A program made the position numbers and the translations under genes. From IMG/VR virus record IMGVR_UViG_3300014913_000759, positions 28,465 through 92,464 of that record: 64,000 bases of DNA. One strand, 5' to 3'. The notes under the pieces are model-generated. The model searched no databases, was not told the origin of the DNA, and saw only the letters and a program-made list of their open reading frames with translations. Source of the stretch: a virus. This document shows positions 52,743 to 55,023 of this stretch, in pieces; position 1 is the first letter of the stretch, and every line of letters starts with the position of its first letter.

Positions 52743-53936
52743 TTATTGCTCTGCCGTTGCCGTAATCTTTACCTCTCTAGCCTGTGTACCAGCCTTATAC
52801 GCCGTCTGTGCTACGCCGTTTGCGTCGGTAGATACTGGAGAGGTTGTTATGTAACCATTTGAGTCATCATCTGTAAAGTATACATTCTTACTAGATATAG
52901 GCTCATTAAACTGGTCTTTAACAATCGCTGTTATTGTGCTGTTGTTAACGCCGTTAGCCGGTAAAATTGCCGGCTCTGCTGCCAAACTAATGCTTGTAAT
53001 GAATGGTGTGGACGTAGATAACTGATAATTATAGGTACTATCCGAAAACGTATATGTCTGGCCATAATAAGTAGCCTTTCTTTGGAGCCTGTACATATTT
53101 GTGCCATCTATTGCTAAATCGTATAGAGGTATTACTGTAGCATTATCATCTTCCACATTATCCATTGCTAACGAACCAAAATTAGTTAGTGTGCTTGGAT
53201 TTAAAAAAAGCATATTAGTAGTTTTTACAAAACAAATCGACTCGCCCCAAGTTGGTTTGTAGGTCAGGCTGTACATATCGAAAAATGTTGCAGCTGCCAC
53301 CTGAGAATATTCGCCTCCCAATGTTCCAGTAACTGTTGCGCCAGTGTAAGCGTTTATCTGGTGAAGCTTGCCGCCGGAATTGTCGTCAAAAACCCAAAGA
53401 GATTTGTAAGAAACTATCGGGTCTCCTGATGCATAGTCGTATGTTATACCTGGGCTCACATCTATTGTACCTGCGCCCACTCCGGTGACAGTGCGTTCTT
53501 CTGATTGACCGTTTGTGTTCGGACCAAGGTAGACCGTTTCTCCATTAGATATATCAGACTCGTTTGTTACGCTCAGCGTCGTAGAGCCTGCCAACTCGGT
53601 GCCAGAGAAATCGGTATGGTAGTGTTCTACGGTAAAAGCATTAGAACTAACGTTGCTTATAGTAAAGCTGTCTCTTTGTTTACAAACGTAGTTATCTAAA
53701 TACCAGCGTCTTATTACCATGTCTGGAGAATCGGCTTCCATGCTCCAGAAATTTCTACCGTCGTGCTCCAAACTAACAATCGTGCTGGCTATGGTTGTAT
53801 CTAATGGATAAGAAAACGCCTGTGTTCCATCGTCAGTTTTAACTATCAAACTGTCAGTGTCCTCATCCATCATATAATAGTAGCCATCTACCACCGAAAG
53901 ATTTGGTTTTCGTAGCCTTATGTTTTCGTAAGCCAT
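52743..53936 (-). CDS. Virion-type protein with a C-terminal Big_1 Ig domain
   Basis: 'ILPANGVNNSTITAIVKDQFNEPI...STDANGVAQTAY...VKITATA'. Confidence 0.75.
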   Translation of the reverse strand: MAYENIRLRKPNLSVVDGYYYMMDEDTDSLIVKTDDGTQAFSYPLDTTIASTIVSLEHDGRNFWSMEADSPDMVIRRWYLDNYVCKQRDSFTISNVSSNAFTVEHYHTDFSGTELAGSTTLSVTNESDISNGETVYLGPNTNGQSEERTVTGVGAGTIDVSPGITYDYASGDPIVSYKSLWVFDDNSGGKLHQINAYTGATVTGTLGGEYSQVAAATFFDMYSLTYKPTWGESICFVKTTNMLFLNPSTLTNFGSLAMDNVEDDNATVIPLYDLAIDGTNMYRLQRKATYYGQTYTFSDSTYNYQLSTSTPFITSISLAAEPAILPANGVNNSTITAIVKDQFNEPISSKNVYFTDDDSNGYITTSPVSTDANGVAQTAYKAGTQAREVKITATAEQ

Positions 53937-54577
53937 TAGTTGCCTCCATCTATACTTAAATCAAAGAAGTCTAAAGAGTAGGGGGGAACAAATAATGATG
54001 TTCCTGTGTCCTCGATAATAAAGTTAGATAACCTGTTTTTAAGGTCCTCCTTTGATATACCAACATCTTTAGTGCCCTTCTTTAGGCCCTTATCTACTTC
54101 AATCAAAATAGATGCGGGGCCCACCAAATTGTCTATTTTTTTAGACATGTTTTTTATAGATACTCTGCCTTTAAAGTGTGGTGTATAATTAAAAAATGTA
54201 AATCCCATGTTGAATAGTACGCCTGTCGCAGAATTTAATGATCTAAAAATCGTAGGAGGTCCGCCTGCAGATTGATAACAATCGTTATCTAGAATGACAC
54301 AAAATATATTTTTACATCTGCTGACTGCTATCTGCGCATATGCGCCCATTTCCATCAAAAAATTTCCATCGCCGGCAAAAATAAACACTCTTTTTCGTGT
54401 ATTCATAGCTACTCCGAGTGCAAACGCTGCCGCCACACCTCTAGACTCTGTAATATAAAAGTTTCCTTCTCTATCAAACTGATAAGCTTCTTTGCTTACA
54501 TCCTCTCCTGCAAAGATGGCAATATCATTGTCTTTTAGGCACGCAATAAAGTCTTTTATAACCTTATATCTCTTCAT
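53936..54577 (-). CDS. ThDP-dependent decarboxylase beta subunit (sulfopyruvate decarboxylase ComE / phosphonopyruvate decarboxylase C-half-like)
   Basis: 'MKRY.VI', 'DREGNFY', 'ALGVAM', ThDP/Mg motif 'GDGNFLMEMG...ILDNDCYQSAGGPPT'. Confidence 0.82.
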   Translation of the reverse strand: MKRYKVIKDFIACLKDNDIAIFAGEDVSKEAYQFDREGNFYITESRGVAAAFALGVAMNTRKRVFIFAGDGNFLMEMGAYAQIAVSRCKNIFCVILDNDCYQSAGGPPTIFRSLNSATGVLFNMGFTFFNYTPHFKGRVSIKNMSKKIDNLVGPASILIEVDKGLKKGTKDVGISKEDLKNRLSNFIIEDTGTSLFVPPYSLDFFDLSIDGGN

Positions 54578-55023
54578 ATTAACGTCCCCTCCTTTATTAT
54601 TGCCACAGCTGGCATCTGTTTTTTATCTATTTGATTTGTCAGATACCTGATATCCCTTTTTACGTTGCTTACGACTCTATACGGTACCTTTGCTGCTCCA
54701 GAAATTCTCTTAGAATTTATATTGTCGGTGCCATCATATGCAAGTATTAGAACTGGTATTTTATACTCGCCACTAAAACTGGAAAGGCCGTCCATCAAAT
54801 TATAAATTCTATCTAACTCAATTATAACGACAGATTTAGTACCGGCCACAGACGCTCCGCTCGTAAGTGCCAAAGCAACGTCCTCCTTTACCGCAGGTAT
54901 ATAATGAAGAAATTTTGAGCTCATTGTATCATACAACGGCTTAAACCCCTTACAGGGCACACCCGCAAAAAACCTATAGTCCAATTCCTCACATAAAAAA
55001 TGCCAAAATTCCTTTACCTTCAT
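54574..55023 (-). CDS. ThDP-dependent decarboxylase alpha subunit (ComD / phosphonopyruvate decarboxylase N-half-like), divergent
   Basis: Start moved to ATG 55023 (MKVKEF, behind GAAGGGGG). 'FFAGVPC..FKPL', 'YIPAVKED.A.AL.SGA.VAG', 'YKIPVLIL'; the usual MQNSGLGN segment reads IELDRIYN. Confidence 0.78.
   Translation of the reverse strand: MKVKEFWHFLCEELDYRFFAGVPCKGFKPLYDTMSSKFLHYIPAVKEDVALALTSGASVAGTKSVVIIELDRIYNLMDGLSSFSGEYKIPVLILAYDGTDNINSKRISGAAKVPYRVVSNVKRDIRYLTNQIDKKQMPAVAIIKEGTLI

What the first reader, a model, noticed from the sequence alone, without database searches (positions are those of the whole stretch)
53936..55023. Split ComD/ComE-like ThDP decarboxylase embedded in the virion structural operon
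Seen: two overlapping genes with the alpha (GVPC...E) and beta (GDG...DN) halves of the sulfopyruvate/phosphonopyruvate decarboxylase family, coupled to the downstream Ig-domain gene by a TAATG overlap. The conserved alpha-subunit MQNSGLGN appears as IELDRIYN, and the beta 'GSMG' as 'ESRG'. Established: this family makes sulfoacetaldehyde (coenzyme M pathway) or phosphonoacetaldehyde (aminoethylphosphonate used to decorate glycans and lipids). Inference: either the phage supplies a phosphonate/sulfonate substituent for its virion glycans, or the enzyme has altered specificity or has been co-opted for a non-catalytic role. This enzyme family is unexpected among tail genes.
Basis: partly seen in the sequence, partly recalled or inferred. 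Interest (0 to 1): 0.75.

Follow-up and report, generated by a model that had tools for sequence, protein, structure and literature searches.

The report
Eroded thiamine-enzyme pair in phage tail genes
Two overlapping genes in the late, tail-side gene block of an uncultured sediment jumbo phage are true relatives of a two-subunit vitamin-B1-dependent decarboxylase. Half of the cofactor site is gone here and nearly all of it in related phages, yet selection keeps both genes, so they most likely do a non-enzymatic job that is still unknown.

Summary
Minus-strand genes 54574-55023 (alpha, 149 aa) and 53936-54577 (beta, 213 aa) are the PYR and PP halves of a split ComDE/RhiEF-type ThDP decarboxylase. 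They overlap by ATGA, and beta is joined to the next gene by TAATG.

The enzymatic reading is not supported:
- Beta keeps GDG...DN, but GSMG is ESRG.
- Alpha keeps Glu47, but QNSGLG is ELDRIY and the RG..EPQH segment is deleted.
- In about 90 related phage lineages the remaining motifs disappear stepwise (GDG, then GEG, then none). The genes still stay intact, always paired, with dN/dS of 0.2-0.3.
- No PEP mutase, ComA, class V aminotransferase or cytidylyltransferase was found in this 92-kb record or in a complete 269-kb relative.

The window's copy is the least eroded, earliest-branching form: 14 of 20 enzyme signature positions, against a phage median of 6.

Two related phage clades with the same module lack the pair, so it is an accessory, not a core part.

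Best reading: a non-catalytic heteromer used with the tail module; its role is unknown. The scan reached the same reading on four other genomes. No paper describing it was found.

The parts
54574..55023 (-). Alpha subunit (149 aa), PYR-domain homologue of ComD/RhiE. It keeps YRFFAGVPC and Glu47. QNSGLG is replaced by ELDRIY, and a 13-residue deletion removes the RG..EPQH..MG segment.
53936..54577 (-). Beta subunit (213 aa), PP-domain homologue of ComE/RhiF. It keeps GDG69-71 and D97-N98, but GSMG is ESRG. About 28 residues at the C-terminus extend past the end of the enzyme profile and are modelled with low confidence.
54574..54577 (-). ATGA overlap: the alpha stop and the beta start share bases (translational coupling). 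An AGGAGG sits upstream of the beta start.
   Evidence: read directly
53934..53938 (-). TAATG overlap: the beta stop and the start of the 397-aa gene share one base.
   Evidence: read directly
55555..56553 (-). Highly conserved 332-aa protein, probably the tail sheath. It anchors the conserved module two genes upstream of alpha.
   Evidence: VIA Z 9.5 to the phage XM1 tail/baseplate entry 7kh1 and Z 8.9 to the E217 entry 8env; weaker matches to A-1(L), Mu and PhiTE sheath or tail chains, over residues 64-207 only
55035..55541 (-). 168-aa protein with an Ig-like C-terminal part. In some relatives it lies after the alpha/beta pair rather than before it.
52743..53936 (-). 397-aa protein: N-terminal beta-propeller-like part (a lead only) and a C-terminal Big_1 Ig domain. 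It is translationally coupled to beta.
50031..52733 (-). 900-aa paralogue of the 397-aa protein, with the same MAYENIR N-terminus and a weak Big_1 match.

Best explanation
The two genes encode a heteromeric ThDP-fold protein descended from a split ComDE/RhiEF-type 2-oxo-acid decarboxylase. An ancestor of this jumbo-phage group captured it once, and it has since been turned into a non-catalytic protein (a pseudoenzyme). It is made together with the late, tail-side proteins. I infer that it works as an alpha-beta assembly in an accessory role linked to the tail: a peripheral virion part or an assembly helper. It does not work as a decarboxylase. Shown here: the homology and the fold; loss of the GSMG, QNSGLG and RG..EPQH motifs in this copy; stepwise loss of the remaining motifs in relatives; purifying selection; strict pairing of alpha with beta; a fixed place next to the sheath-like gene; absence of pathway partners; and dispensability in two related clades. 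Inferred: that the heteromer persists, that it is tail-associated, and what its actual role is.
For: Motif state in a library-wide profile search: about 55 cellular-type hits keep GSMG, GDG and DN almost without exception. About 90 phage-type hits never have GSMG; GDG survives only in the window's subclade, GEG in the next, and neither in the rest. Of 20 positions that are at least 90% conserved in the cellular enzymes, the window's beta keeps 14. The cellular median is 20 (range 15-20) and the phage median is 6. The phage family has its own conserved residues instead: D18, G24, K62, R63, Q82, S86, P108, G119 and F122. Alpha: the QNSGLG loop is never kept, Glu is lost in 7 of 20 loci, and the RG..EPQH segment is deleted. 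Tree: the cellular and phage clades are split with SH-aLRT 100, and the GDG subclade branches first. Selection: for copies that have none of the motifs (L016 against L020), dN/dS is 0.32 for alpha and 0.22 for beta, against 0.09 for the sheath-like gene. Alpha and beta occur together in 21 of 21 loci and are the only gene families confined to those loci. Synteny: the pair lies directly or one gene downstream of the sheath-like gene in 20 of 29 scorable viral loci. No PEP mutase, ComA, Aminotran_5 or NTP_transf_3 was found in G000-G005; G005 is 100% complete.
Against: This copy still has the Mg-diphosphate motif (GDG...DN), M75, the SxGG segment and the PYR-domain Glu47, so some ligand binding, or even activity, is not excluded. 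No virion proteomics, expression data or complex model supports a physical place in the tail. The call that the module is a tail module rests on a domain-level match (Z 9.5 over 107 residues). Two related clades build the same module without the pair, so it is not a core structural part. Only 35% of this genome is in hand.
Confidence: 0.62

Rival explanations
1. In this least-eroded subclade the pair is still an active ThDP decarboxylase, perhaps with changed substrate specificity. It would supply an aldehyde (phosphonoacetaldehyde, sulfoacetaldehyde or another) for the phage's glycan chemistry.
For: GDG69-71, D97-N98, M75, S103, G105-G106 and alpha Glu47 are kept: 14 of 20 signature positions, just under the cellular range of 15-20. 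The subclade sits next to the cellular enzymes in the tree. An earlier scan note reports an SqdB sulfo-sugar island elsewhere in this genome (not tested here).
Against: GSMG is ESRG, and that position varies freely (R, P, T, N, Y) even within the subclade. The equivalent Ile or Met of other ThDP enzymes holds the cofactor in its V shape (established knowledge). QNSGLG is replaced and the RG..EPQH segment is deleted in alpha. G25, R29, T104 and Q107, which are at least 95% conserved in the enzymes, are changed. No pathway partner was found. Scores are 4-fold or more below the equivalog cut-offs.
Confidence: 0.12
2. The remodelled cofactor pocket now binds some other small molecule. The pair would be a sponge or sensor (for example counter-defence or metabolite sensing) that merely sits in the late operon and is not a virion part.
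For: The central Asp of GDG is kept in 72% of phage lineages. The Asn of DN is most often replaced by Ser, the commonest residue there at 33%, and the sampled loci read S/T-G. That could be a residual phosphate or metal site. The pair is dispensable and lineage-specific, as accessory genes are.
Against: The other pocket positions are among the most variable in the family: the top residue has a frequency of 0.11-0.38 at the GSMG columns. That argues against one conserved ligand. Tight translational coupling inside the late structural block is unusual for counter-defence genes. No PADLOC or other family evidence was obtained.
Confidence: 0.18
3. A decaying passenger: a captured host operon on its way to being lost.
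For: Motifs erode, the pair evolves about twice as fast as the neighbouring sheath-like gene, and it is absent from two related clades.
Against: Both reading frames are intact in every locus examined and in about 90 clusters at 50% identity. dN/dS is 0.2-0.3 even in copies without motifs. The family has its own conserved residues. Alpha and beta are never found apart.
Confidence: 0.03

Closest known systems
RhiE/RhiF, split phosphonopyruvate decarboxylase of Bacillus subtilis ATCC 6633 (PDB 9iz3, 9iz4; reviewed in PMC12141560)
   Same: Two separate subunits, PYR (alpha) and PP (beta), encoded by adjacent genes. It is the best sequence match in the PDB (E 1e-15 and 1.4e-9) and the best structural match (TM 0.74/0.85, 25% identity). 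Both share YxFxGVPC, the Glu, GDG and LDN.
   Different: RhiEF binds ThDP at a heterotetramer interface and sits in a phosphonate gene cluster. The phage pair lacks GSMG, QNSGLG and the RG..EPQH-type segment, has no PEP mutase nearby, lies among tail-side genes, and carries a 28-residue C-terminal tail on beta.
ComD/ComE sulfopyruvate decarboxylase of methanogens (TIGR03845/TIGR03846)
   Same: The same split architecture and family. The NCBIfam hits are E 1.6e-9 (alpha) and 1.3e-20 (beta).
   Different: Scores are 37.8 and 74.1 bits against cut-offs of 148 and 221.5. No ComA was found; ComB and ComC were not searched. The cofactor loops are changed.
Single-chain phosphonopyruvate decarboxylase (TIGR03297), e.g. 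the fused forms of 365-380 aa found
   Same: Homologous over both halves (beta E 2.4e-23).
   Different: These are fused, keep all motifs and accompany PEP mutase. The phage family has no fused member among the 150 best hits.
AzcB/AzcC alpha-imino acid decarboxylase (PDB 9u8q-9u8s)
   Same: Another split ThDP decarboxylase. It is the third-best structural match for beta and a weak sequence match for alpha.
   Different: It is an active enzyme in a natural-product pathway, and the similarity is much more distant.
The same eroded pair reported by this scan on four other jumbo-phage genomes (e1-5323739, e1-5327695, e1-5926416, e1-5379707)
   Same: The same family, the same position in the tail-side block, and the same reading (a non-catalytic pair kept by selection).
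   Different: This window holds the least-eroded, earliest-branching form (GDG...DN and Glu kept). Here the pair is also shown to be absent from two related clades, so it is not universal.

Membership tests
ThDP-dependent enzyme fold (Pfam TPP_enzyme_C / TPP_enzyme_N) | Sequence and fold match to the PP and PYR domains | tested here: met
   Beta: PF02775 at 40.4 bits against a cut-off of 21.9; AlphaFold model pLDDT 94.1, TM 0.74/0.85 to RhiF. Alpha: PF02776 is below its cut-off (17.9 against 26.8), but the family profile hits RhiE at E 1e-15.
ComDE / RhiEF split decarboxylases | Separate adjacent alpha (PYR) and beta (PP) genes | tested here: met
   The two genes overlap by ATGA. No fused form appears in the phage family.
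ComDE / RhiEF split decarboxylases | Score above the NCBIfam equivalog cut-offs (TIGR03845, TIGR03846, TIGR03297) | tested here: not met
   37.8 against 147.95, 74.1 against 221.5, and 82.7 against 312.5 bits.
Catalytic ThDP enzymes | GDG-X(24-27)-N Mg-diphosphate motif in the PP domain | tested here: met
   G69-D70-G71 and D97-N98 are present in this copy. The motif is lost in most of the phage family.
Catalytic ThDP enzymes | G-S-M-G of the PP domain (its large hydrophobic residue holds the V conformation of ThDP) | tested here: not met
   The window has E44-S45-R46-G47. Cellular relatives keep G 95%, S 91%, M 100% and G 98%. No phage-family member keeps the motif.
Catalytic ThDP enzymes | PYR-domain catalytic Glu | tested here: met
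   Glu47 in VKED aligns with the Glu of RhiE (SIRED). It is lost in 7 of 20 related loci.
ComDE / Ppd family | PYR-domain QNSGLG loop and RG..(D)EPQH..MG segment | tested here: not met
   The loop is ELDRIY, and a 13-residue deletion removes the second segment when compared with a split Planctomycetia homologue and a fused Bradyrhizobium homologue and with RhiE.
Phosphonate (AEP) pathway | PEP mutase, AEP transaminase or cytidylyltransferase in the same genome | tested here: not met
   PF13714, PF00266 and PF12804 are absent from G000 (35% complete) and from G001-G005, including the 100% complete G005. The control genomes gave hits. The missing 65% of G000 could not be tested.
Coenzyme M pathway | ComA/ComB/ComC partners | tested here: inconclusive
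   ComA (PF02679) was searched only in the five related records G001-G005 and is absent from all of them, including the complete G005. The window's own record G000 was not searched for ComA, and ComB and ComC were not searched anywhere.
Phage tail sheath (for the neighbouring 332-aa protein) | Sheath fold over the whole chain | tested here: inconclusive
   Only residues 64-207 match sheath chains (Z 9.5, 8.9 and 5.9). Residues 211-300 form a common beta-barrel. Foldseek gave nothing at E<=0.001. The Atlas leads (DUF3383, Phage_sheath) are weak.

The most novel reading that the evidence does not exclude
The alpha-beta heteromer is a physical part of the virion tail, such as a peripheral sheath or baseplate accessory. 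That would be the first ThDP-enzyme fold used as a phage structural protein. This window would preserve the transitional form that can still bind a Mg-diphosphate ligand, so the change from enzyme to building block could be followed step by step across living lineages.
Probability: 0.3. Interest if true: 0.75.

Novelty: new variant of a known kind. Interest (0 to 1): 0.55.

Why it matters
Pseudoenzymes that take on structural or assembly roles are well known in cells but poorly charted in phages. Here a two-subunit cofactor enzyme has been kept as a pair for a very long time in a large group of uncultured jumbo phages, inside the tail-side gene block, while its cofactor site was dismantled in an order that can still be read (GSMG first, then GDG to GEG to nothing). 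This window holds the earliest-branching, least-eroded stage, so it is the best starting point for experiments on what is lost first and what new function took over. In practice, automatic annotation of these genes as sulfopyruvate decarboxylase (seen in source names) would wrongly suggest that these phages make coenzyme M or phosphonates.

Tried and rejected
The genomic context and DNA of the closest relatives (P0002-P0015) could therefore not be fetched, and site-wise dN/dS within the GDG subclade was not possible.
- PHROGs gave nothing useful for alpha, beta or any neighbour.
- Pfam gave nothing for the putative portal or terminase-side genes or for the 1767-aa protein. PDB sequence searches for the 653-aa and 1767-aa proteins were empty or noise.
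- tblastn of alpha and of the 332-aa protein against 50,697 GenBank phage records found no match.
- A single-sequence scan of viral contigs with beta found nothing; the alignment-based scan worked.
- The genome-contig scan with the alpha profile found only two small, probably mis-binned MAG contigs plus cellular Ppd genes. It gave no host clue.
- Sequencing runs: no RNA holder is listed. The best holder is a sediment metagenome that may be the source of this DNA.
- I looked for a neighbouring protein whose residues track the presence or absence of the pair. Only a few discriminating columns appeared (for example in the 653-aa and 202-aa proteins), from just two independent contrasts. This is not evidence of a partner.
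- Five literature searches found no description of this phage family: sulfopyruvate decarboxylase or phosphonopyruvate decarboxylase with phage, RhiEF, thiamine pyrophosphate with huge phages, and pseudoenzyme with thiamine diphosphate and phage.
- I considered a link between the SqdB sulfo-sugar island and sulfopyruvate chemistry and set it aside.
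Full report
**What is there**

All genes in this part of the window lie on the minus strand.
- Alpha runs 54574-55023 (149 aa). I prefer the ATG at 55023 to the upstream ATG at 55071. It has a GAAGGGGG Shine-Dalgarno four bases upstream, it lies just past the TAG of the preceding gene, and 46 homologues begin with the same M(V)KAKEFW.
- Beta runs 53936-54577 (213 aa).
- Alpha's TGA and beta's ATG overlap as ATGA. Beta's TAA and the next gene's ATG overlap as TAATG.

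**Family assignment**

- NCBIfam places beta with phosphonopyruvate decarboxylase (TIGR03297, E 2.4e-23) and with the sulfopyruvate decarboxylase beta subunit (TIGR03846, E 1.3e-20). It places alpha with the alpha subunit (TIGR03845, E 1.6e-9). All scores are four-fold or more below the equivalog cut-offs.
- Pfam passes beta (TPP_enzyme_C, 40.4 bits) but not alpha.
- Profiles built from the phage homologues hit one solved structure first: the split phosphonopyruvate decarboxylase RhiE/RhiF of Bacillus subtilis (9iz3). The E-values are 1e-15 for alpha and 1.4e-9 for beta.
- An AlphaFold model of beta (pLDDT 94.1) matches RhiF at TM 0.74/0.85. Next come the split imino-acid decarboxylase AzcBC and the PP domains of many ThDP enzymes.
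- Homology and fold are therefore not in doubt. PMC12141560 describes RhiEF as a ThDP-dependent heteromer that binds the cofactor at a heterotetramer interface and is homologous to ComDE.

**State of the cofactor site in this copy**

- Beta keeps G69-D70-G71 and D97-N98 (the Mg-diphosphate motif), M75, and S103 with G105-G106.
- Beta has E44-S45-R46-G47 where cellular relatives have G-S-M-G. It has also changed G25, R29, T104 and Q107.
- Alpha keeps YRFFAGVPC and Glu47.
- Alpha has ELDRIY in place of QNSGLG. A 13-residue deletion removes the RG..(D)EPQH..MG segment that is present in a split Planctomycetia homologue, a fused Bradyrhizobium homologue and RhiE.
- From general knowledge of ThDP enzymes, the large hydrophobic residue of GSMG holds the cofactor in its V conformation. 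Its replacement by Arg here, and by Pro, Thr, Asn or Tyr in close relatives, argues against canonical ThDP binding.

**The family as a whole**

A profile search of 1.84 billion representative proteins found 1,840 hits, 60 of them at E<=1e-30. I tabulated the motif columns for the best 150 hits plus the 25 word-search hits.
- About 55 cellular-type sequences, including fused forms of 365-380 aa, keep GSMG, GDG and DN almost without exception.
- About 90 phage-type sequences never have GSMG. GDG is kept only in the window's subclade, GEG appears in the next, and the rest have unrelated residues (CED, DDS and others). DN is mostly replaced.
- Of 20 positions at least 90% conserved in the cellular group, cellular sequences keep a median of 20 (range 15-20) and phage sequences a median of 6. 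The window's beta keeps 14.
- The phage family has conserved residues of its own: D18, G24, K62, R63, Q82, S86, P108, G119 and F122.
- A maximum-likelihood tree (quick search) splits the cellular and phage groups with SH-aLRT 100. The GDG subclade sits at the base of the phage group, then GEG, then the motif-less forms.
- This fits one capture followed by stepwise dismantling of the site. The window holds the least-derived form.

**The pair is kept by selection and always stays together**

- In 20 viral loci, the sheath-like neighbour is 48-61% identical to the window's copy. Alpha is only 25-46% identical and beta 25-45%.
- For the least saturated pair of loci (L016 against L020), whose copies lack Glu, GDG and DN, dN/dS is 0.32 for alpha, 0.22 for beta and 0.09 for the sheath-like gene.
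- All reading frames examined are intact.
- Clustering every ORF of 30 loci showed that alpha and beta are the only families confined to loci that have the pair. They occur together in 21 of 21.

**Context**

- The window is bases 28465-92464 of a 92.5-kb IMG/VR record that CheckV rates 35% complete. It is held in full by a sediment metagenome that may be its source.
- The order around the pair is conserved in relatives: genes of about 220, 142 and 135 aa, a very conserved protein of about 325 aa, a roughly 167-aa Ig-like protein, alpha, beta, and then two or three large paralogues that begin MAYENI.
- The 332-aa protein has more than 560 homologues at 53-77% identity.
- Residues 64-207 of its model (pLDDT 75.7) match sheath or tail chains of phages XM1 (Z 9.5), E217 (8.9), A-1(L), Mu and PhiTE. 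Residues 211-300 form a common beta-barrel. I call it a probable tail sheath and mark that as inconclusive.
- The 397-aa protein coupled to beta has a C-terminal Big_1 domain and a propeller-like N-terminal part, which is an Atlas lead only.
- Further downstream lie giant proteins with discoidin and LamG domains.
- A late, tail-side virion block is therefore the most reasonable setting.

**Not universal**

- Of 29 scorable related viral loci, 20 carry the pair. It lies either directly after the sheath-like gene or after the 167-aa gene, as in the window.
- Nine loci lack it. They form two clades on the sheath-like tree.
- Profile searches of the whole records found no copy elsewhere in G007 (86% complete), G008 or G009. 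G000 and G005 served as positive controls and were found.
- The pair is therefore an accessory and is not needed to build this tail.
- One earlier scan note (e1-5926416) described the pair as present in every related phage of its genome. Here that does not hold for the wider group.

**Pathway partners**

PEP mutase, Aminotran_5 and NTP_transf_3 gave no hit in this record or in the related records searched. ComA gave no hit in the five related records; the window's own record was not searched for it. One related record, G005, is 269 kb and 100% complete, although its pair is motif-less. The control genomes gave hits each time. ComB and ComC were not searched. The missing two thirds of this genome remain untested.

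**Reading**

- Most likely (about 0.6): the pair is a non-catalytic alpha-beta assembly made with the tail-side proteins and used in an accessory, tail-linked role. The role itself is inferred, not shown.
- Residual enzyme activity in this least-eroded subclade: about 0.12.
- A repurposed small-molecule-binding role unrelated to the virion: about 0.18. It is weakened by the high variability of the pocket positions across the family.
- A decaying passenger: effectively excluded.

**Comparison and novelty**

- The closest known system is RhiEF/ComDE. The phage pair shares its split architecture and fold but fails three of five motif tests and the pathway-context test. It should not be annotated as a sulfopyruvate or phosphonopyruvate decarboxylase, although some sources name homologues that way.
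- No paper describing this phage family was found.
- The scan reached the same reading on four other genomes. I saw those notes only after reaching mine.
- What this window adds is the transitional form, the ordered erosion on a tree, the presence/absence pattern, and the deletion in alpha.

Noticed in passing
L033:6963-7889, L034:4096-5031, L029:7140-7643: In relatives that lack the alpha/beta pair, the same spot directly after the sheath-like gene holds free-standing LAGLIDADG homing-endonuclease-like genes (PF14528, E 3e-6, 1.5e-5 and 0.003). This junction seems to be an insertion hot spot.
   Followed up: partly
L024:5935-8993: One relative has two sheath-like paralogues (347 and 317 aa) flanking the alpha/beta pair. 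The second resembles the sheath-like protein of the clade that lacks the pair.
   Followed up: no
window 53936-54019 (beta residues 186-213): Beta carries a C-terminal extension of about 28 residues past the end of the enzyme profile (GTSLFVPP...FFDL...GGN). It is conserved in the window's wider subclade, absent in about 70% of the family, and modelled at pLDDT 54-62. It could be a docking peptide.
   Followed up: partly
window 50031-55541: The 168-aa, 397-aa and 900-aa proteins fall into one BLAST family and share an N-terminal MAY(F/E)... start. Relatives carry two or three such paralogues of 400-1000 aa in a row (propeller-like plus Ig domains).
   Followed up: partly
window 58125-58319 (-): A 64-aa Cys-rich ORF (CxxC...CxxC...C, zinc-ribbon-like) lies just upstream of the large intergenic gap. 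It is conserved in 25 of 30 related loci.
   Followed up: no
window 58328-59441 (-): The 195-aa, 92-aa and 78-aa genes cluster as one family by single-linkage BLAST and recur in nearly all related loci. They may be small paralogous virion proteins.
   Followed up: no
BFVD hits I7KLL3, H6SUI2: Campylobacter phages CP21 and IBB35 encode short transketolase-like PYR/PP-domain proteins. This is another, unrelated case of split ThDP-fold proteins in phages.
   Followed up: no
L043 (Bacteroidales MAG) and P0323: Cellular relatives include ORFs of about 707 aa in which a PEP-mutase-like N-terminal part is fused to the decarboxylase. This shows how tightly the true enzymes are tied to PEP mutase.
   Followed up: no
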